Under the pieces are notes generated by a model. The model was not told the DNA's origin, searched no databases, and worked only from the letters and a program-made list of their open reading frames with translations. From positions 4,138 through 68,137 of IMG/VR virus record IMGVR_UViG_3300047552_000255: a stretch of 64,000 nucleotides of DNA. One strand, written 5' to 3'. Both the position numbers and the translations under genes were made by a program. Positions 29,494 through 36,483 of this stretch are shown here, piece by piece. This stretch comes from a virus. Position 1 is the stretch's first letter. Every line of letters begins with the position of its first letter.

Positions 29494-31638
29494 TTATGCC
29501 GGTTGAGGGCTGAAGTTGTCTGTGATGGGCTGGCCGTCAGCCAGTGTCTGTCCGCTCTGTGGCCCGGCGCTCGCTTGCTGTGCGGGCTGTCCCTCGGGCT
29601 GCTGCATCTGGGAGGCAGCGAGCTGCTTCAAGCGAAGCGCCGAGAGCGAGGGGATCACGTCGTCGGGGTTCATGTTGAGGTTCTTGGCCGACTCGCGCAG
29701 TAGCGCCGCCCGGCCTTCCGGTCCCATGATCTGCATGTCGATGGGGTTGGACGTCATCTGGAGGAACTGCATGCGAGCTTGGTTAGCCGCGTCCTTGACT
29801 TGCAGCGAGAGCGCCCCGCGCGGCACGATGTTGAGGTCGCCCCGGAAGTTGAACTTGGTGTCGTACTGCATCTTCCAGTCGAAGAGGCGCTTCAGGACTG
29901 GCGACGTCACATGGATGTCCAAGCTGGAGACGAGCGACTTGATGACCTTGCTCGCGTTGCCAACCATCATGGACAGGCCTGACGCTGTGCGCCCGGCCCC
30001 CGGCGTGCCCTCGGTGCCCGTCATGTAGCGCGGGATGCCCGAATACTCGTCGGCCATCAGGCTGAACTTGTCGTACACGCCCATCAGCTCGGAGGCGTTG
30101 GAGCCCGGCTGGAAGAACGATATGGGGCTGGCGCTCGAACCCATCGGGTCGTTGTTGAACTGCCAGATTTTCCACGGGTATAGCTCGGTCACGTCCTCGC
30201 CCGGCGCGATGCGGTCCACGTTGACACCCACCTGCGGCCCCGAGCTGATGCCCATGTTGTTAGCCAGCGCCCGCGCGGCACTGTTGCACATGCTCTGGCA
30301 GTCCTCGATGAGGTCGTACAGGCTGTTATGCCAAAACGCTCCGGGGATGCGGCTGTAGCCGTCGGCGTAGTACGGACGACGCGCCAGCGGGTCAGGGTTG
30401 ATCACGGCCTTGATGGCGTACTCGCCAATCTGCCAGACCTCCACCGGGTACTCCTTGGCATCGTCCTTGATGTCCTTCATACCCCACTCGCGCAGCATCT
30501 TGCCCGAGACGTTGCCCCAATACTGGAGCGCGTCGATGAGGTCGTCGCCGCCCATCGCCATGACGCTTGAGCGCCCCTCGGCGTGGTGTTTCTGGATGTC
30601 GATGGCAAGCCACTCGCGCAAGCCCCCTTGGCCGTGGGTGTCGAGCACCGCACGGATGGCATCCTCTGAGTAGCCGTCAACACCGATCAGGGCAGACAGC
30701 TCGCCACGGCTTAGCCGGTGACGCTGGAACAGGAACGCATCCTGCACGTTCTTCGCCCACGGGGCGGGATAAATCATGAACGGATCAACCCGCTCCCACT
30801 TGAGGGTCTTGACCTCCTGCACGTCGGCCTTGCTGGAGCCGTCGGGCTGCTGCACCCACTGCAAGCGAGACTCGATGTTGACCACCGGCCCCTTCATGAA
30901 CGCAGTCTTGAATACCGTGAGGTCGTCCAGAAACTCGCTCAGCGCTTCGAGGTAGTTACCCTCCACCAGCGCGTCTTCGAGCGCGTCCTCGGCCTTGCTG
31001 GACTCGAACCGTGCGGTCTGCATGATCTGGTCTTCGGCCCGGTCGCGTGCGTCGCGCAACAACTGGCGGATGATGGGAACTTCCATCGGCATGCCGCTCA
31101 TCTCGGCTTGCATGACCGTCTGCTGCACCGCCTGCATGATCTGCGTGACGTCTTCTTGCGGCAGGTCTGGCTTGGGTGAGGGAGAGATGGTCCAAGGTTT
31201 CTCAGCGCCCGAGCCGATCATGACGTCGGCCAAGAGCGCCTTGGCCTGCCGCGCCTTGGTAGCGAAGAGCATCATGTAGATGGTGGAGCCGCCGTTGGCG
31301 TTGAGCTTGGCTTCCATCTCGGCGGAGTAGCGCCCGGCCTTGGCGCGGACTGCTTCGAGCATCTTGCGCTCGGGTTCGAGCTTGGCGATCTTGGCAATGC
31401 TCCAGTGCTTCTGCAACTGAGCGACGAGTCCTTGCACCAGCGGCTGGCTGGATTCCTGCATGGCACGCTGCGTCGCAGCGGCTGTGGCGTCCTCGGCCTG
31501 CATAGCGGCCAGAGACTTGACGGGCATGAGCCCACCCAGATTGTTGGGTGTGGGAGCTGCCGGGGCAGCGACGGTTGGACTTTCCTCGGGTTGAGGTGCC
31601 CACGAGAACGATGTCGGAGGGGTCAGACCAAGCGCCAT
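29494..31638 (-). CDS. Portal protein
   Basis: Follows terL; true start MALGLT; VDPF..YP.P, NSAARAL.NN...SSGPQV, DE.SG.P.Y..G and RTASG.SM. Confidence 0.9.
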   Translation of the reverse strand: MALGLTPPTSFSWAPQPEESPTVAAPAAPTPNNLGGLMPVKSLAAMQAEDATAAATQRAMQESSQPLVQGLVAQLQKHWSIAKIAKLEPERKMLEAVRAKAGRYSAEMEAKLNANGGSTIYMMLFATKARQAKALLADVMIGSGAEKPWTISPSPKPDLPQEDVTQIMQAVQQTVMQAEMSGMPMEVPIIRQLLRDARDRAEDQIMQTARFESSKAEDALEDALVEGNYLEALSEFLDDLTVFKTAFMKGPVVNIESRLQWVQQPDGSSKADVQEVKTLKWERVDPFMIYPAPWAKNVQDAFLFQRHRLSRGELSALIGVDGYSEDAIRAVLDTHGQGGLREWLAIDIQKHHAEGRSSVMAMGGDDLIDALQYWGNVSGKMLREWGMKDIKDDAKEYPVEVWQIGEYAIKAVINPDPLARRPYYADGYSRIPGAFWHNSLYDLIEDCQSMCNSAARALANNMGISSGPQVGVNVDRIAPGEDVTELYPWKIWQFNNDPMGSSASPISFFQPGSNASELMGVYDKFSLMADEYSGIPRYMTGTEGTPGAGRTASGLSMMVGNASKVIKSLVSSLDIHVTSPVLKRLFDWKMQYDTKFNFRGDLNIVPRGALSLQVKDAANQARMQFLQMTSNPIDMQIMGPEGRAALLRESAKNLNMNPDDVIPSLSALRLKQLAASQMQQPEGQPAQQASAGPQSGQTLADGQPITDNFSPQPA

Positions 31639-31690
31639 AGTTAGTCCATGAAGTTGGCCGAGTATATAACAGGCTAACCTGTTTGCAAAC

Positions 31691-33124
31691 CTAGCTGTAA
31701 ACGTACGAGCTGCGCTTGGGTGTCTGAGCCGCCCTTCGTCCCATGTTGGGGCCGCCGTGGTGGATGATGTTGTAGTGCAGCGCCAGATACTGCGCCGCGT
31801 CCGAAATGTGGCTGTGGTGGCTCTTGTCGGGGGTGAGCGTCGTCTGACCGCTGGCTGACTTCTTGTACCGGTAGCCCCACTCACAGGCCTCGATGAAGTA
31901 CGGGCACTCGGGGTCGATCAAAAAGGCAGGTCCACCGTCGATTTGGCGTGAAAACAGGCCCTCAACAGCGTCAATTCGCCTCTCCGGGTCGTTTGTGGAG
32001 GCCTTTACGACCCTGAAACCCCGGTTCTGGATGGCCTGCGCGATGGTCATTTCGTTGACCTGAGAGCGCTGAAAACAGGCCGGATCGACCACAAAAACGA
32101 TACTTTCGGGCCGAATTTGGGGAAATTTGCTCCGCAGCAGGGGTATTAGGAGCCTGTCGAGGTAGCTCTCCACCCCCATCGTCTGCTCCTCTGGCACGTA
32201 GCACTCGGCCAGCACGTTGACCCGCCCGCGCATATCGAGCTGCCCCACCACAGCCGCAGCTTGCAGCCCGTTGTCCATGCCCACAATCAGCGGATTCACG
32301 CTTGCCGAGACGGCCTTGAGCGGGTCTTTTGCTACGTGGAAGTCGCGCCTGAAGCTCGCTTTGTACACCGGCTGGCCCATGTTGCCCGGCCCGAAGTTGT
32401 TCTTGAGGTAGACGTCGATCCACCCCTCGGTGTTCGCAGCCAGTAGGTTGTCGTAGTAGTCGGCAGCGAGGTTGGACAGGTTTTCCGCGTCGGGGTTGAT
32501 GGAGCCGTCTGCGAGGATGGCGCTTGGCTGGATAAACACCTCGGTGTTCGTGGGCGGCTTGGTGATCAACTCGTGCCAGAAGCCCCCAAGAGGCGGCGGG
32601 TTGGTCGAGCAGATGACTCCGGGGTAGGTAACCCCGCCGGACGCCATATTAGGGAAGCGGGCTGTACGGCCTTGGAGACCAGCGAACACCTCGGGGTCCA
32701 CCTCACGGGACTCCTCCACCCAAGCGGCTGAGCACTCCACAGAGAGCAGGCGTCGCACGTCATCTGGCGTGTCTGCGGCCATCAGGACGAACTCAGTGTG
32801 CACGACGGTCCCATCAGGAATGCGCACCTTGATCTCAAACGTGTTGTCGGTCAGCCTCCACTGCCCCATCGGGTGGGGCGGCATCGTAACCATCCACTGG
32901 TCAATGAGGGGCTTGACGGTTGCCTTCAACTGAGCGGCAGTGTTGCGCAGCACGATGAACTTGGTGCGCCGGATGTTGTTGTGCGGCACCTGATTGAATG
33001 CGCGGTCGAGCAGGTCAAAGAACGCCACCGTGGACTTGCCCCCACCCACCGGGCCCATGATGATCTTGATGAACTTGCGGCTGGCAAGGAACAGGTTGCC
33101 CGTGGGGCTTGCGTTGTAGTTCAT
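31691..33124 (-). CDS. terL: Terminase large subunit
   Basis: Walker A IMGPVGGGKST, Walker B AWVEE, coupling motif STNPP, and RNase H-like IVGMD and SH..DA.QY. Confidence 0.93.
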   Translation of the reverse strand: MNYNASPTGNLFLASRKFIKIIMGPVGGGKSTVAFFDLLDRAFNQVPHNNIRRTKFIVLRNTAAQLKATVKPLIDQWMVTMPPHPMGQWRLTDNTFEIKVRIPDGTVVHTEFVLMAADTPDDVRRLLSVECSAAWVEESREVDPEVFAGLQGRTARFPNMASGGVTYPGVICSTNPPPLGGFWHELITKPPTNTEVFIQPSAILADGSINPDAENLSNLAADYYDNLLAANTEGWIDVYLKNNFGPGNMGQPVYKASFRRDFHVAKDPLKAVSASVNPLIVGMDNGLQAAAVVGQLDMRGRVNVLAECYVPEEQTMGVESYLDRLLIPLLRSKFPQIRPESIVFVVDPACFQRSQVNEMTIAQAIQNRGFRVVKASTNDPERRIDAVEGLFSRQIDGGPAFLIDPECPYFIEACEWGYRYKKSASGQTTLTPDKSHHSHISDAAQYLALHYNIIHHGGPNMGRRAAQTPKRSSYVYS

Positions 33125-33501
33125 GCTTGGTCCAGCAGGTTCTCGAGTGGCGGAATGACCAGAGCGGGGGTGGTGGGAGCAGGTGGCTCATCTGGTGAGC
33201 CAGTGACCTCTTTGATGGTCGCATCTTCGATAACTTCGGTCGCTTCTGGCGCAGCGCTGGGGTTGGTCACGCCGATGGTGACGTTGCCTCCGTTGATGGT
33301 CCAGCTCACCTGCATCATGGAGTCCACCTTGTCGGACTGATTGAGACCGTGCGCCTTGGCAACCAGCTCGACCGCTTTGCGCAGGTCGTCGATGCTGGCT
33401 TCGGCTTCGTTGCCCAGCCGCTTGAAATACTCGACGATGACCTGATCGCCACCGTCCTCCAAGTTCTTTTTGAACCGGTCTCGTGCTGTTTGAGTGCTCA
33501 T
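33121..33501 (-). CDS. Probable terminase small subunit
   Basis: Overlaps the terL start; helical N-terminus and acidic tail; start MSTQTA. Confidence 0.6.
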   Translation of the reverse strand: MSTQTARDRFKKNLEDGGDQVIVEYFKRLGNEAEASIDDLRKAVELVAKAHGLNQSDKVDSMMQVSWTINGGNVTIGVTNPSAAPEATEVIEDATIKEVTGSPDEPPAPTTPALVIPPLENLLDQA

Positions 33502-33704
33502 GCCCCATAGGATAACGCAACTAACACCTCCGGGCAACGCACTCCTTGCTAACCAGATGCCGCCTCGTGGGGTTAGCTAGCTAGGTGTCATTTACTTAAC
33601 AGGGGCTCAAAAACTGATTTCCACTGAGAGCCAGAGATAAGGCTCGGGGGCGGGGCCAGCCGCCCTTGTCCCACCCCCCGGCAGGCCGGATTTTCAACAA
33701 AAAG

Positions 33705-34280
33705 CGAGTGGTGTAGCGAGGCTGAAAGATAGCACTGCCAGACCTACCGAACGTTGCAACGCAAGCCGAAAGGTGGCGATACGGAAGATGTGCAACGTGG
33801 GCCGATTGATTAGTCGCGGGCTGGAGGAGCCGGGCGGTCATAGGGCACCCGCCCTTCAGTGTGGCGGGTAGGGGCTTGACGCTGGTGGCAGTGCGGGCTC
33901 GCAGGGCGCGGAGTGAATCGGTGGAACGGCTGGCAACAGCAAGTGTACTGAATGCACGAAACGAACCGATGGTCGCAAGGCTTGAATCGGGGAGGGTTAG
34001 CGTCTGGCGGGCAACATACGCGGGTTCATCAGTGAAAAGCGGTCGATAGCGCATCAAGCCCCCGAACCAAAAGCATATAGCGGCGCATGGCGCTGCAAGG
34101 GTCTATCGAACGGCATAGCGTGAACTATGCAGGCGCCGCAGGGGGCGCCAGTAATACCCTGATTGAAGCACGGCAAAGCCCGCGACGCTGGCGCGGTAAT
34201 ACCAGCACTTACACAAATCTGACTACGTCAGTTCCTGTTCACTCTACGCGGTGGGCAGTGGCGGACGGTGTCCGGCAACC
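33705..34280 (+). ncRNA. Candidate large structured non-coding RNA (about 570 nt, family unknown)
   Basis: More than 15 complementary stems found by eye, GNRA loops, G-U pairs on the + strand and a long-range pseudoknot pairing (see findings). Confidence 0.6.
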
Positions 34281-34302
34281 CTCAACAACCAAGGAGAATC
34301 GT

Positions 34303-34779
34303 ATGTTTACATTGGAACAATTCAACACCATCATCGCTAACATTGCCCGCGCTCAAGCCCGCGCCACGACCGAAATCGGCAAGGCTCTGCTGGCCGCGCT
34401 GTACTTCGCTAACGTGAACAAGGATGCTGGCGCAGCTAACGCACTGGTGAAGTGCCTGCGCAAGTCCACCAAGCAGCAGGCAATCCTCGACCTGCTGGAA
34501 AAGCACGGCAAGCTGGCTTGGATCAAGGCTGACAAGAAGTTCGAGTTCTTCGATGCCAAGACCCCGGACTGGAACGCTGAGACCGTGAAGACCCTGCGCG
34601 AGGTGTGCAACAACTGGGAATCCTTCAAGCTGGAAAAGGCTGCGGTCGAAGAGTTCGACCTGATGGAAGCAATCCGCAAGCAGCTCGACCGCGCCGAGTC
34701 TTACAGCAAGAAGGGCGTGAAGGTCAGCCACGCTGAGCTGGCCGAGAAGATCGCAGCTCTGCTGGGTGCAACTGCCTGA
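34303..34779 (+). CDS. First early protein (158 aa), unknown function
   Basis: AAGGAG RBS, start MFTLEQ, strongly biased codons, followed by a hairpin. Confidence 0.85.
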   Translation: MFTLEQFNTIIANIARAQARATTEIGKALLAALYFANVNKDAGAANALVKCLRKSTKQQAILDLLEKHGKLAWIKADKKFEFFDAKTPDWNAETVKTLREVCNNWESFKLEKAAVEEFDLMEAIRKQLDRAESYSKKGVKVSHAELAEKIAALLGATA

Positions 34780-34859: not shown

Positions 34860-35215
34860 GCAAGTGTCAAGAGTATGGGGCAGTCAACTGTCAAGAGAAG
34901 AAAACCTGACTCCCTTCTACTCTTGATTGTTTTGATTCTCCAGATTCATATAACACCCTCCGGCGATGAGATACACGAGCCGAGTGTTATTTTCTGGTGG
35001 ACTGCACCCCGCTGCACTTTTCTACTCTTGATAGTTCCTCTCTCCCAAAAGGGGTGTAATAAGAATCAAGAGAATCAGAGAAGAACCCCAACTGTCAATG
35101 TAAGGAATCAAGAGAACAACTGTCAAGGGTAGGAATTTTATACCCCTGATTACATTGACTGTTGACGTGTTAGTCTGTTAGCCTAAGCCCCCTTTCCAAC
35201 TGTCAATCTAAGGAA
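34860..35215. repeat. AT-rich iteron-like repeat cluster (candidate replication origin or control region)
   Basis: CAACTGTCAA x4 (34885, 35089, 35117, 35197), TCAAGAG in four direct copies and two inverted CTACTCTTGA copies (34917, 35022). Confidence 0.65.
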
Positions 35216-36241: not shown

Positions 36242-36483
36242 TACGAGAGCATCCGGCGCTCATGGTTAGCCGTAGGGCTCCAGTGTGGCGAACAACCCCC
36301 ACTGGTTAGTAGCTGGCCCTTGAAGACCCCACTGGTCAGGTTAGTAAAGCCCTACGGGGCCCAATGCGGGGGATGAACTCCGCGCCTGCGTGTGTATCCA
36401 CGAAACCGAACCCGACCTGCCCGCGTAACAGGCACGTACACCGGGGGCGCGTTAGCCCCTGTCTTTTTTCTCAGGAGAACATC

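What the first reader, a model, noticed from the sequence alone, without database searches (positions are those of the whole stretch)
33705..34280. Candidate new large, pseudoknotted phage ncRNA between terS and the first early gene
Seen in sequence: about 570 nt with no credible ORF is almost continuously self-complementary. Outer stem GCACTGCCA 33732 / TGGCAGTGC 33886 encloses CCTACC 33743 / GGTAGG 33867. That in turn encloses ACGTTGCA 33751 / TGCAACGT 33791 (with an inner GCC-GAAA-GGT), CGATT/AGTCG, GGCT/AGCC and GGGCGG 33832 / CCGCCC 33849. The segment GGGGCTTGACGCT 33871 is complementary to AGCG(CA)TCAAGCCCC 34048-34062, outside that domain, which gives a long-range pseudoknot. A second domain, ATCGGT 33917 / ACCGAT 33965, encloses GCTG-GCAA-CAGC and GTGTA/TGCAC. 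Further stems follow: GGTC-GCAA-GGCT, TCGATAG 34043 / CTATCGA 34103, GCGGCGC/GCGCTGC, GCATAG/CTATGC, GGCGCC/GGCGCC, CTGAC/GTCAG, CTGTTCAC/GTGGGCAG and CGGAC/GTCCG. GTAATACC occurs twice. GNRA loops and G-U wobbles read correctly on the + strand, which points to RNA-level selection. Established knowledge: large ornate ncRNAs such as GOLLD and ROOL are phage-associated. I see no RNase P, tmRNA or intron hallmarks here. Inference: an early-expressed ornate RNA, or a very large structured leader of the 34303 gene, possibly an undescribed class.
Basis: partly seen in the sequence, partly recalled or inferred. Interest (0 to 1): 0.9.

Follow-up and report, generated by a model that had tools for sequence, protein, structure and literature searches.

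The report
Conserved pseudoknotted phage early leader RNA
The long gap before the first early gene of this uncultured freshwater phage encodes a roughly 590-base folded RNA leader with several pseudoknots that is kept in at least six distant relatives and matches no described RNA family.

Summary
Window 33538-34302 is the longest non-coding stretch of the window. Folding energy gives no support: z is -1.03 on the + strand and -1.40 on the - strand. Phages related through terminase do not share the sequence. The decisive evidence came from homologues of the downstream 158-aa gene. In 6 of 10 fetched upstream regions, a 560-610 nt non-coding leader aligns with the window's leader over its whole length, with z from 2.9 to 9.7. 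I placed thirteen helices by hand at homologous positions. They give 293 of 303 canonical cells, and 44 of 69 pairs carry a compensatory double change, against 15.5±3.0 in column shuffles and 6-9 when the partner is slid. A sequence-only alignment gave 48 of 48 paired cells. Rfam has no match. Expression and function are untested. My best guess is a cis-acting leader that serves as a protein-binding platform.

The parts
33710..34302 (+). Whole candidate leader RNA, about 590 nt, running from the conserved GGUGUAG 5' motif to the start codon of the 158-aa gene
   Evidence: Non-coding by frame plot. Aligns over its full length with the upstream regions of L086, L093, L097, L099, L091 and L100. 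Leader lengths are 562-610 nt in the six lineages.
33713..33747 (+). P1, the 5'-terminal hairpin. It is weak in the window, at 4 bp: GUAG 33713-16 with CUAC 33744-47.
   Evidence: 6-9 bp in L099, L093, L091 and L086 in the same register, with 4 of 6 pairs showing double changes. The window copy has p=0.25 on its own.
33765..33774 (+). P2, a GNRA-tetraloop hairpin (GCC-GAAA-GGU)
   Evidence: A GAAA or GAGA loop sits at the homologous place in 5 of 5 sequences. 14 of 15 cells pair.
33848..33868 (+). Hairpin B: CCCGCC / 9-nt loop CUUCAGUGU / GGCGGG
   Evidence: RNAalifold found it on a plain MAFFT alignment, with pair types CG:3 UA:3 and CG:3 GC:2 UG:1. 33 of 36 cells pair, and 4 of 6 pairs show double changes.
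33917..33970 (+).
   Evidence: A 5-7 bp closing helix of different sequence encloses 40-42 nt in W, L093, L091 and L086, and 66 nt in L097 and L099. In the L099/L100 pair there are 2 compensatory changes on a sequence alignment.
34039..34052 (+). Hairpin D: GCG / loop GUCGAUAG / CGC
   Evidence: RNAalifold on MAFFT gave CG:3 GC:2. 19 of 20 cells pair.
34103..34109 (+). CUAUCGA, the distal partner of the hairpin D loop (34043-34049). Together they form a pseudoknot.
   Evidence: The partner follows the loop sequence in all five sequences. In L086 both the loop and the partner are a different sequence, yet they remain complementary. 32 of 35 cells pair, and 5 of 7 pairs show double changes.
34080..34096 (+). 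Hairpin F: GCGGCGC-AUG-GCGCUGC
   Evidence: Present in W and L086 only. 14 of 14 cells pair, with 2 double changes.
34132..34161 (+). PK1, an H-type pseudoknot. Stem 1 is 34132-37 with 34144-49. Stem 2 is 34139-43 with 34157-61. Loop 3 is AGUAAUA.
   Evidence: Stem 1 is invariant in 4 of 4 sequences (20 of 20 cells). Stem 2 pairs in 20 of 20 cells, with double changes in 4 of 5 pairs. CM R2 aligns it in L086, L097 and L099.
34180..34206 (+). PK2, a second H-type pseudoknot. Stem 1 is 34180-84 with 34192-96. Stem 2 is 34187-91 with 34202-06. Loop 3 is UAAUA.
   Evidence: Stem 2 pairs in 20 of 20 cells, with double changes in 5 of 5 pairs. Stem 1 pairs in 20 of 20 cells. Its apparent double changes in L097 are probably a register shift in a GC repeat; only the C-G to A-U change in L091 is clean.
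34219..34231 (+). Hairpin H3: CUGAC-UAC-GUCAG
   Evidence: 15 of 15 cells pair in W, L097 and L091, and all 5 pairs differ on both sides. Absent in L086.
34235..34258 (+). Hairpin H4: CUGUUCAC / GUGGGCAG, with two U-G pairs
   Evidence: 42 of 42 cells pair in six sequences. On the MAFFT alignment A8 all cells of this helix pair, with 3 pairs changed on both sides. The natural variant 34255 G>A turns a U-G pair into U-A.
34262..34274 (+). Hairpin H5: CGGAC-GGU-GUCCG
   Evidence: 16 of 16 cells pair, with AU:2 GC:2 at the fourth pair.
34275..34302 (+). Unstructured C/A-rich spacer and ribosome-binding site (AAGGAG 34291-96) before ATG 34303
   Evidence: Unpaired in the MFE fold. Similar C/A-rich spacers occur in the relatives. 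No terminator-like site lies between H5 and the gene.
34303..34779 (+). Gene for a 158-aa protein (phrog_1448, function unknown). The leader always accompanies it.
   Evidence: PHROG hit at 5.4e-12. 12 protein clusters found. Model pLDDT is 87.4 with no PDB fold match.

Best explanation
Window 33710-34302 (+) encodes a real, evolutionarily conserved, highly structured RNA of about 590 nt. It is the 5' leader of the first gene of the rightward early/replication operon of a temperate, uncultured freshwater podophage.

Shown:
- The region is non-coding.
- The same leader, in length and in order of elements, precedes homologues of the 158-aa gene in six divergent lineages.
- At least 13 helices keep pairing through compensatory changes.
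- The fold contains a GNRA hairpin.
- It has a hairpin whose loop pairs with a distal segment.
- It has two tandem H-type pseudoknots with an invariant stem 1, a co-varying stem 2 and an A/U-rich loop 3.
- It has three terminal hairpins, followed by an open C/A-rich spacer and the ribosome-binding site.

Inferred:
- It is transcribed from the promoter-like motif that ends in GGTGTAG.
- It stays attached to the mRNA, because no terminator follows it.

Most likely mechanism (inference, about 40% within this explanation): the two near-identical pseudoknots are binding sites for a protein, most plausibly the product of the linked 158-aa gene. That would make the leader a ribonucleoprotein platform that sets translation or stability of the early message. 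The ribosome-binding site itself is not sequestered, so a simple riboswitch-type off switch is unlikely.

Second option within the same explanation (about 25%): the nascent leader modifies RNA polymerase so that it reads through the intrinsic terminator at 36442-36470 and through later ones.
For: - Non-coding. Frame-plot difference is at most 0.14 in the window's leader, with means of 0.07-0.13 across all six leaders, against 0.40-0.59 in the downstream genes. tblastx between the leaders finds nothing below E 0.1.
- Homology. Local alignment of the window leader to 10 upstream regions of gene homologues gave z 9.7, 4.8, 4.7, 4.6, 3.0 and 2.9 in six, spanning 33709-34305. The other four gave z of 1.9 or less.
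- Independent structure call. RNAalifold on a plain MAFFT alignment picked hairpins B and D with compensatory pairs.
- Covariance models. R2, built from the window plus L086, found L097 (E 1e-10), L091 (0.0044), L099 and L100 (0.022) and L048 (0.048). Each hit is full length and lies directly upstream of the gene.
- Covariation. Over 69 pairs, 293 of 303 cells are canonical. 44 pairs carry a double change, against 15.5±3.0 in 1000 column shuffles (0 of 1000 reach 44) and 6-9 when the 3' partner is slid by 1-3.
- Sequence-only alignment A8. 48 of 48 cells pair, the covariation score is 0.458 against 0.218 (1 of 500), and slid partners give 0 double changes.
- Strand. There are 8 G-U/U-G cells against 1 C-A cell. 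GNRA loops read on the + strand. The natural variant 34255 G>A turns U-G into U-A.
- Per-helix folding in tight windows gave Fisher p from 4e-3 to 8e-8.
- Linkage. Among 80 terminase-related loci, only L048 carries the gene, and it is the only one with the leader.
- A 7-bp, 6-GC terminator with a T-run lies inside the operon at 36442-36470.
Against: - Thermodynamic stability is at chance level on both strands.
- I set helix registers by hand for each sequence, so the counts lean towards the structure. Only rest on sequence-only alignments, and those cover few helices and 2-6 sequences.
- Only six lineages could be fetched.
- P1 is weak in the window (4 bp, p 0.25).
- Four apparent double changes in stem 1 of PK2 are probably a register shift.
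- Four more distant gene homologues (L088, L094, L095, L098) also have long non-coding upstream regions, but these could not be aligned.
- No transcript evidence.
- The 158-aa protein has no recognisable RNA-binding fold.
- The terminator count on the operon equals chance overall: 19 found against 19.1 expected.
Confidence: 0.72

Rival explanations
1. The RNA is a free-standing, trans-acting large non-coding RNA, an 'ornate' RNA in the sense of GOLLD or ROOL. It would be released from the leader by processing. It would then act on a host or phage target, or self-assemble, and would not regulate the gene behind it.
For: - The size is conserved at 562-610 nt.
- There are many co-varying helices and three pseudoknots.
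- It is phage-borne, with no Rfam match.
- The ribosome-binding site is not sequestered, so a cis function is not obvious.
Against: - No terminator or recognisable processing site lies between H5 and the ribosome-binding site.
- Linkage to one gene family is strict.
- Sequence conservation is low, at about 55-60% between lineages. The leader is not detectable by nhmmer, unlike the strongly conserved cores of known ornate RNAs.
Confidence: 0.15
2. The gap is a DNA-level control region holding early promoters, operators, an origin or a packaging site. On this view the inverted repeats are protein-binding palindromes or promoter copies in both orientations, not RNA helices.
For: - It is a divergent intergenic region next to terS.
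- A conserved DNA-type element lies just upstream at 33585-33677. It has a palindrome, promoter-like spacing and promoter-like motifs.
- Folding energy is at chance level.
Against: - Arms change sequence completely while keeping complementarity. This holds at 13 helices, including pseudoknotted ones with asymmetric loops, which dimeric DNA-binding sites do not explain.
- G-U pairs are tolerated on the + strand only, 8 cells against 1.
- GNRA loops are present.
- The element travels with the downstream gene and not with terS.
Confidence: 0.06
3. The leader is a ligand-sensing riboswitch or attenuator that controls the early operon.
For: - It is a long structured 5' leader.
- H-type pseudoknots with an A-rich loop 3 occur in some riboswitch aptamers (recalled knowledge, not tested here).
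Against: - No Rfam riboswitch matches, even at E up to 10.
- There is no terminator or anti-terminator alternative, and the ribosome-binding site is not sequestered.
- The size is far above that of known aptamers.
Confidence: 0.04

Closest known systems
Autoregulatory 5' leader pseudoknot of phage T4 gene 32
   Same: An H-type pseudoknot lies in the 5' leader of a phage gene and serves as a nucleation site for a protein. That this mechanism exists comes from passages of PMC10690425 read and from general knowledge. Here two H-type pseudoknots sit in the leader of one conserved gene.
   Different: - This leader is about 590 nt with 13 or more helices and two tandem pseudoknots.
- The linked protein has no detectable ssDNA-binding or other known fold.
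- Binding is untested.
Processive antitermination RNAs (HK022 put; eps-associated RNA, EAR)
   Same: The position matches: directly behind an early promoter, at the head of a long operon that contains at least one strong intrinsic terminator (36442-36470). That EAR contains a pseudoknot is recalled, not tested.
   Different: - Those RNAs are about 70-120 nt (recalled).
- No Rfam match was found.
- The leader tracks one gene family rather than the operon type, since terminase relatives with other first genes carry other leaders.
Large ornate phage- or prophage-associated RNAs (GOLLD, ROOL)
   Same: Several hundred nucleotides long, multi-helix with pseudoknots, carried by phages, function unknown. 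For these RNAs I saw only the abstract of 10.1101/2024.12.08.627333 in the listing.
   Different: - It does not match their covariance models at gathering or E-value thresholds.
- Sequence conservation is lower.
- It is fused to an mRNA rather than free-standing.
Candidate structured RNAs predicted upstream of phage genes in IMG/VR (PMC10690425)
   Same: The same data source and the same kind of object: cis-regulatory candidates within 25 nt of a start codon (passages read).
   Different: Their highlighted motifs (GP20, GP32) are much shorter.

Membership tests
Any Rfam 15 family | Score at or above the family's gathering threshold | tested here: not met
   0 matches in the 64 kb window. In 33450-34400 at E up to 10 there were only snoR28 (17.8 bits against 45) and RAGATH-28 (15.4 against 45.3). 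In seven relatives' loci the only rows were miRNA models, below threshold, on a hairpin outside the leader.
H-type RNA pseudoknot (structural class) | Order stem1-5', stem2-5', stem1-3', stem2-3', with a short loop 1 and a longer loop 3 | tested here: met
   PK1 runs 34132-37, 34139-43, 34144-49, 34157-61, with loop 1 of 1 nt and loop 3 of 7 nt. PK2 runs 34180-84, 34187-91, 34192-96, 34202-06, with loop 1 of 2 nt and loop 3 of 5 nt. All 80 cells are canonical in 4 sequences each.
H-type RNA pseudoknot (structural class) | Both stems supported by compensatory change | tested here: inconclusive
   Stem 2 co-varies, in 4 of 5 pairs for PK1 and 5 of 5 for PK2. Stem 1 of PK1 is invariant. Stem 1 of PK2 has one clean C-G to A-U change, and the rest is probably a register shift.
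GOLLD / ROOL ornate RNAs | Match to the family covariance model | tested here: not met
   No hit at gathering or at E up to 10.
GOLLD / ROOL ornate RNAs | Free-standing transcript that forms RNA-only multimers | not testable with these tools
   There is no transcript data (one search listed no RNA holder). No terminator follows the RNA.
put/EAR-type processive antiterminator RNA | Located in the nascent transcript just behind the promoter of an operon with internal terminators | tested here: inconclusive
   A promoter-like motif lies at 33690-33716. There is one strong + strand terminator at 36442-36470, but the overall terminator count equals the shuffles, 19 against 19.1.
put/EAR-type processive antiterminator RNA | Binds and modifies RNA polymerase so that it reads through terminators | not testable with these tools
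   Needs in vitro transcription or reporter assays.
T4 gene 32-type autoregulatory leader | Pseudoknot in the leader of the gene whose product binds it | tested here: inconclusive
   Pseudoknots are present, and the leader is strictly linked to the gene. Binding is untested. The protein model shows no known nucleic-acid-binding fold: Foldseek E is 0.46 or more and VIA Z is 6.0 or less.
Riboswitch | Aptamer plus expression platform (terminator or ribosome-binding-site sequestration) | tested here: not met
   No terminator-like site lies between 34232 and 34302. The last 17 nt, which include the ribosome-binding site, are unpaired in the MFE fold. No riboswitch model matches.

The most novel reading that the evidence does not exclude
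This is a new class of large (about 590 nt) phage RNA whose two invariant-stem pseudoknots recruit a protein, either the linked 158-aa product or host RNA polymerase. That would form an early-infection ribonucleoprotein that does more than tune one gene. Examples are processive antitermination of the 24-kb early operon, or protecting or marking the first transcript. It would then be a leader-borne counterpart of the ornate RNAs, and one with a testable protein partner.
Probability: 0.3. Interest if true: 0.85.

Novelty: new variant of a known kind. Interest (0 to 1): 0.72.

Why it matters
Large bacterial and phage RNAs with elaborate conserved folds are rare, and most have no known function. 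This one has a fixed genomic role: it is the leader of the first early gene, directly behind the early promoter. It also has a candidate protein partner encoded next to it, and two duplicated pseudoknot modules that can be mutated and restored. That makes its function directly testable by reporter assays, gel shifts and probing. The case also gives a method lesson. The folding z-score and terminase-based relatives both pointed to 'nothing there'. The homologues appeared only when I searched with the gene behind the RNA.

Tried and rejected
- **Rfam.** Nothing at the gathering threshold. Only noise at E up to 10.
- **Nucleotide searches.**
  - blastn of the gap against 50,697 phage records found no match.
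  - blastn and nhmmer of the gap against 80 terminase-related loci matched only the terS-proximal part, 33562-33750.
  - Five whole relatives' records gave nothing below E 0.29.
  - An earlier-findings look-up by sequence gave nothing.
- **Single-protein scans of viral contigs** with the 158-aa protein and with terS found nothing.
- **Protein-coding reading.** Rejected on the evidence.
- **ACGTTG(N)CAACGT as an operator.** The motif is not localised to the gap, so I dropped it.
- **GGTGTAG and TTGAC..GTGTAG scans of the window.** Uninformative.
- **Similarity to the second intergenic region 36245-36470.** Only short shared words, and no alignable homology.
- **A pattern built from PK1 and PK2 in viral contigs.** It returned the L086 record again plus one chance hit in coding DNA, L089.
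- **MAFFT alignments of single hairpins with unequal loops.** They misplaced the arms. I therefore gave registers by coordinates in a script.
- **Covariance models.**
  - R1, built from the window alone, found only L086.
  - R2 against 83 further loci gave six rows at E 0.026-0.85. The one I read, L024, lies in apparently coding DNA. The other five I did not read and left aside on score and position.
- **RNAalifold on the near-identical trio L099/L100/L048.** It chose a different global fold with no double changes. My helix, tested on the same alignment, has 2 double changes, but the shuffle control has no power with 2 distinct rows: 124 of 500 shuffles reach the observed value.
- **Sequencing runs.**
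  - No RNA holder was listed.
  - Four DNA runs hold leader pieces with 0-5 differing letters each, too similar for covariation.
- **The 158-aa protein.**
  - No homologue in 2 MAG genomes or in 401 sampled genomes of one bacterial order. That means not found in those searched.
  - Fold searches gave no trustworthy match.
  - The Atlas gave only phage hypothetical clusters.
- **Literature.** Two full-text searches surfaced no description of this RNA. The candidate lists of PMC10690425 are in supplements I could not open.
Full report
**Context**

The window is bases 4138-68137 of a 68,137-base IMG/VR virus record rated 100% complete.
- Structural genes run leftward up to an SU10-type portal or adaptor (29494-31884), the large terminase (31691-33124) and a small ORF at 33121-33537 in the terS position (no family hit).
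- A rightward module starts at 34303. It carries a family A DNA polymerase, an SNF2 helicase, a DUF927 primase-helicase and an integrase.
- The nearest cultured phages share only about 35% terminase identity.
- Metagenomes hold 615 terminase homologues at E of 1e-20 or better among the 8000 candidates scored.
- Two of the three genome-collection hits lie in MAGs labelled Thiobacillus and Pigmentiphaga. This is a weak hint of a betaproteobacterial host.

**The observation**

The 765-nt divergent gap 33538-34302 has no coding signal.
- GC by codon phase differs by at most 0.14 there, against 0.4-0.55 in the neighbouring genes.
- 33496-34321 is the longest flat stretch of the window, 825 nt against 390 for the next longest.
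- ORFs of 20 aa or more give implausible products.
- The 153-aa minus-strand ORF hits no family.

Their density, however, is what a 60% G+C sequence gives by chance:
- z -1.03 on the + strand and -1.40 on the - strand for the whole region;
- z +1.08 to -1.68 for + strand sub-windows;
- mean z -0.35 in 120-nt windows on both strands, among the least structured of 23 related leaders;
- perfect inverted repeats of 9 bp or more are slightly enriched, 3 against 0.65, with 4 of 100 shuffles reaching that.

Rfam gives nothing.

**First comparative pass: negative**

I fetched eighty loci through a terminase alignment. They share with the gap only its terS-proximal 100-150 nt. Iterated nhmmer finds that element, window 33585-33677, in 35 of the 80 loci.

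Behind it, relatives carry a promoter-like motif: GGTTGACGC, five bases, CCTATAGGTGTAGG. After that come 157-808 nt without coding signal (350-800 in 11 of the 12 loci scored), and these stretches are not alignable with the window.

Four freshwater runs hold leader pieces with 0-5 differing letters each. That is too close for covariation. One variant, 34255 G>A, converts a U-G pair of stem CTGTTCAC/GTGGGCAG into U-A.

**Second pass: through the downstream gene**

The 158-aa product of 34303-34779 (phrog_1448) has 11 other protein clusters at 42-68% identity. An alignment of them retrieved three viral loci and ten metagenome loci.

Both viral loci that I profiled have about 750 nt of flat frame plot before the gene.

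I aligned the window leader locally against the ten upstream regions that could be read:
- z 9.7 (L086), 4.8 (L093), 4.7 (L097), 4.6 (L099), 3.0 (L091) and 2.9 (L100), with the alignments spanning 33709-34305;
- four more distant loci (L088, L094, L095, L098) gave z of 1.9 or less.

L048, the only one of the 80 terminase loci that carries the gene, has the L099-type leader.

The six leaders are 562-610 nt long (L097 is cut at its 5' end). All have flat frame plots, with means of 0.07-0.13 against 0.40-0.59 in the gene behind them. None shows translated similarity below E 0.1. No Rfam model matches them.

**Structure**

RNAalifold on a plain MAFFT alignment of six leaders already picked two hairpins with compensatory pairs, B and D. 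Reading the sequences side by side gave a common order of elements:
- a 5' hairpin P1 starting in GGUGUAG;
- a GNRA hairpin P2;
- hairpin B with a 9-nt loop;
- a domain G closed by a 5-7 bp helix around 40-42 nt in four lineages;
- hairpin D, whose 7-8 nt loop pairs with a segment 36-104 nt downstream;
- hairpin F;
- two H-type pseudoknots, PK1 and PK2;
- hairpins H3, H4 and H5;
- a C/A-rich open spacer and the ribosome-binding site.

Folded in tight windows, each helix is the minimum-energy structure in most sequences. Combined p values run from 4e-3 to 8e-8. The windows were chosen after inspection.

With registers fixed by coordinates, 69 pairs give:
- 293 of 303 canonical cells;
- 44 pairs with a change on both sides, and 57 extra pair types;
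- column shuffles give 15.5±3.0 and 30.0±3.4, and 0 of 1000 reach the observed values;
- sliding the 3' partner by 1-3 gives 30-43% pairing and 6-9 such pairs.

These registers are hand-fitted, so the numbers lean towards the structure. Four of the double changes in stem 1 of PK2 are probably a register shift.

Two checks use alignments that were not fitted to the structure:
- On the MAFFT alignment A8, H4 and H5 give 48 of 48 paired cells, 4 of 12 pairs changed on both sides, and a covariation score of 0.458 against 0.218 (1 of 500). Slid partners give none.
- On the gap-free alignment of L099 with L100/L048, the domain-G helix has 24 of 26 paired cells and 2 compensatory changes. With two distinct rows the shuffle control has no power.

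A covariance model built from the window and L086 finds L097 at E 1e-10, and L091, L099, L100 and L048 at E 0.004-0.05. Each hit is full length and lies at the expected place. Chance hits of similar weak E also occur, so position carries part of that argument.

**Strand and molecule**

Eight cells are G-U or U-G and one is C-A. GNRA loops read on the + strand. The element is co-oriented with the gene and the promoter-like motif. Pseudoknots with asymmetric loops, and arms that change sequence completely, do not fit palindromic protein sites on DNA.

*Supported:*
- GCC-GAAA-GGT
- ATCGGT/ACCGAT
- TCGATAG/CTATCGA
- GCGGCGC/GCGCTGC
- GGCGCC/GGCGCC, conserved but not varying
- the two GTAATACC copies
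- CTGAC/GTCAG
- CTGTTCAC/GTGGGCAG
- CGGAC/GTCCG

*Displaced:* GGGCGG/CCGCCC, whose 3' arm instead forms hairpin B with 33863-68.

*Unverified:*
- The 9-bp outer stem.
- CCTACC/GGTAGG. CCUACC sits where the relatives have the 3' arm of P1.
- ACGTTGCA/TGCAACGT.
- GCATAG/CTATGC.
- The 33871/34048 pseudoknot. In L086 the homologous CCCCCGGAC block pairs locally. This comes from my reading and was not counted.

**Function**

No tool here shows function. No terminator separates H5 from the ribosome-binding site, and that site is unpaired. The RNA is therefore most simply a leader and not an on/off riboswitch.

Its strict linkage to one gene family, together with the duplicated pseudoknot module that has an invariant stem 1 and a conserved A/U-rich loop 3, suggests a protein-binding platform. 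The neighbouring gene product is the obvious candidate. However, its confident model (pLDDT 87.4) matches no solved fold convincingly, and the Atlas places it only among phage hypothetical proteins.

A polymerase-modifying, antiterminating role is the main alternative. One strong intrinsic terminator lies in the operon at 36442-36470, though terminator-like sites overall are no more frequent than in shuffles.

**Novelty**

No Rfam family matches. Two literature searches found no description.

I therefore rate it as an undescribed RNA family of a known general kind: a structured phage leader or large phage RNA.

**Limits**
- Only six lineages.
- Hand-set registers.
- No transcript data.

Noticed in passing
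window 33585-33677: An element of about 95 nt lies next to the terS start. It is conserved in 35 of 80 terminase-related loci. It has a palindrome of the GTGTTA-N6-TAACAC type whose half-sites change together, a TTGAnn-17 nt-nnTAAG promoter-like spacing, a GC-rich hairpin and an invariant GGTCCCACCCC. It could be a late-promoter/operator region or a packaging recognition site.
   Followed up: partly
window 33690-33716; L036, L010, L009, L004, L021: The promoter-like motif in relatives reads GGTTGACGC-N5-CCTATA followed by GGTGTAGG. The -35-like and TATA-like parts are too close for a sigma-70 promoter, and the layout recalls single-subunit RNA-polymerase promoters. No such polymerase was found among the ten large ORFs scanned. 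The RNA's 5' hairpin starts inside GGUGUAG.
   Followed up: partly
window 36442-36470 (+): A strong intrinsic terminator (7 bp, 6 G-C, T-run) lies inside the rightward operon, just before the ribosome-binding site of the gene at about 36485. This implies read-through control.
   Followed up: no
window 36245-36470: The second intergenic region shares short words with the leader, for example CTCCAGTGTGGCG against the hairpin B loop region CTTCAGTGTGGCG, and TGTATCCACGAAAC against TGAATGCACGAAAC. It is not alignable as a whole.
   Followed up: partly
window 33503-33580: In run X3, one contig replaces these 78 bases (the terS start and its upstream flank) with 142 other letters. In runs X4 and X6 the terS piece differs by about 10%, while the leader pieces differ by about 1%. 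These are separate short contigs, so they may come from different strains.
   Followed up: no
window 34860-35215: Interleaved direct and inverted repeats (CAACTGTCAA x4, GAATCAAGAGAA x2, TTCTACTCTTGAT x2) lie in a stretch with little coding signal behind the 158-aa gene. They look like iterons.
   Followed up: no
L093 2894-3023: A long, nearly perfect hairpin downstream of the gene homologue scores 32-36 bits against several miRNA precursor models. All scores are below threshold.
   Followed up: no
L002, L009, L018, L043, L065, L076 (leaders of relatives without the 158-aa gene): These unrelated leaders share a TTAACAA(TT) motif 97-214 nt after the conserved element. Other such leaders (L004, L009, L021, L022, L062, L065, L067, L076) carry a 5' hairpin whose loop holds GATC and whose stem co-varies. 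Other leader families may therefore also be structured.
   Followed up: no
L088, L094 (also L087, L095, L098): More distant homologues of the 158-aa gene (41-45% identity, lower G+C). Where upstream sequence was profiled or read (L088; L098 in part) the region before the gene lacks coding signal, about 750 nt in L088, and could not be aligned to the window. This may be a diverged branch of the same RNA.
   Followed up: partly
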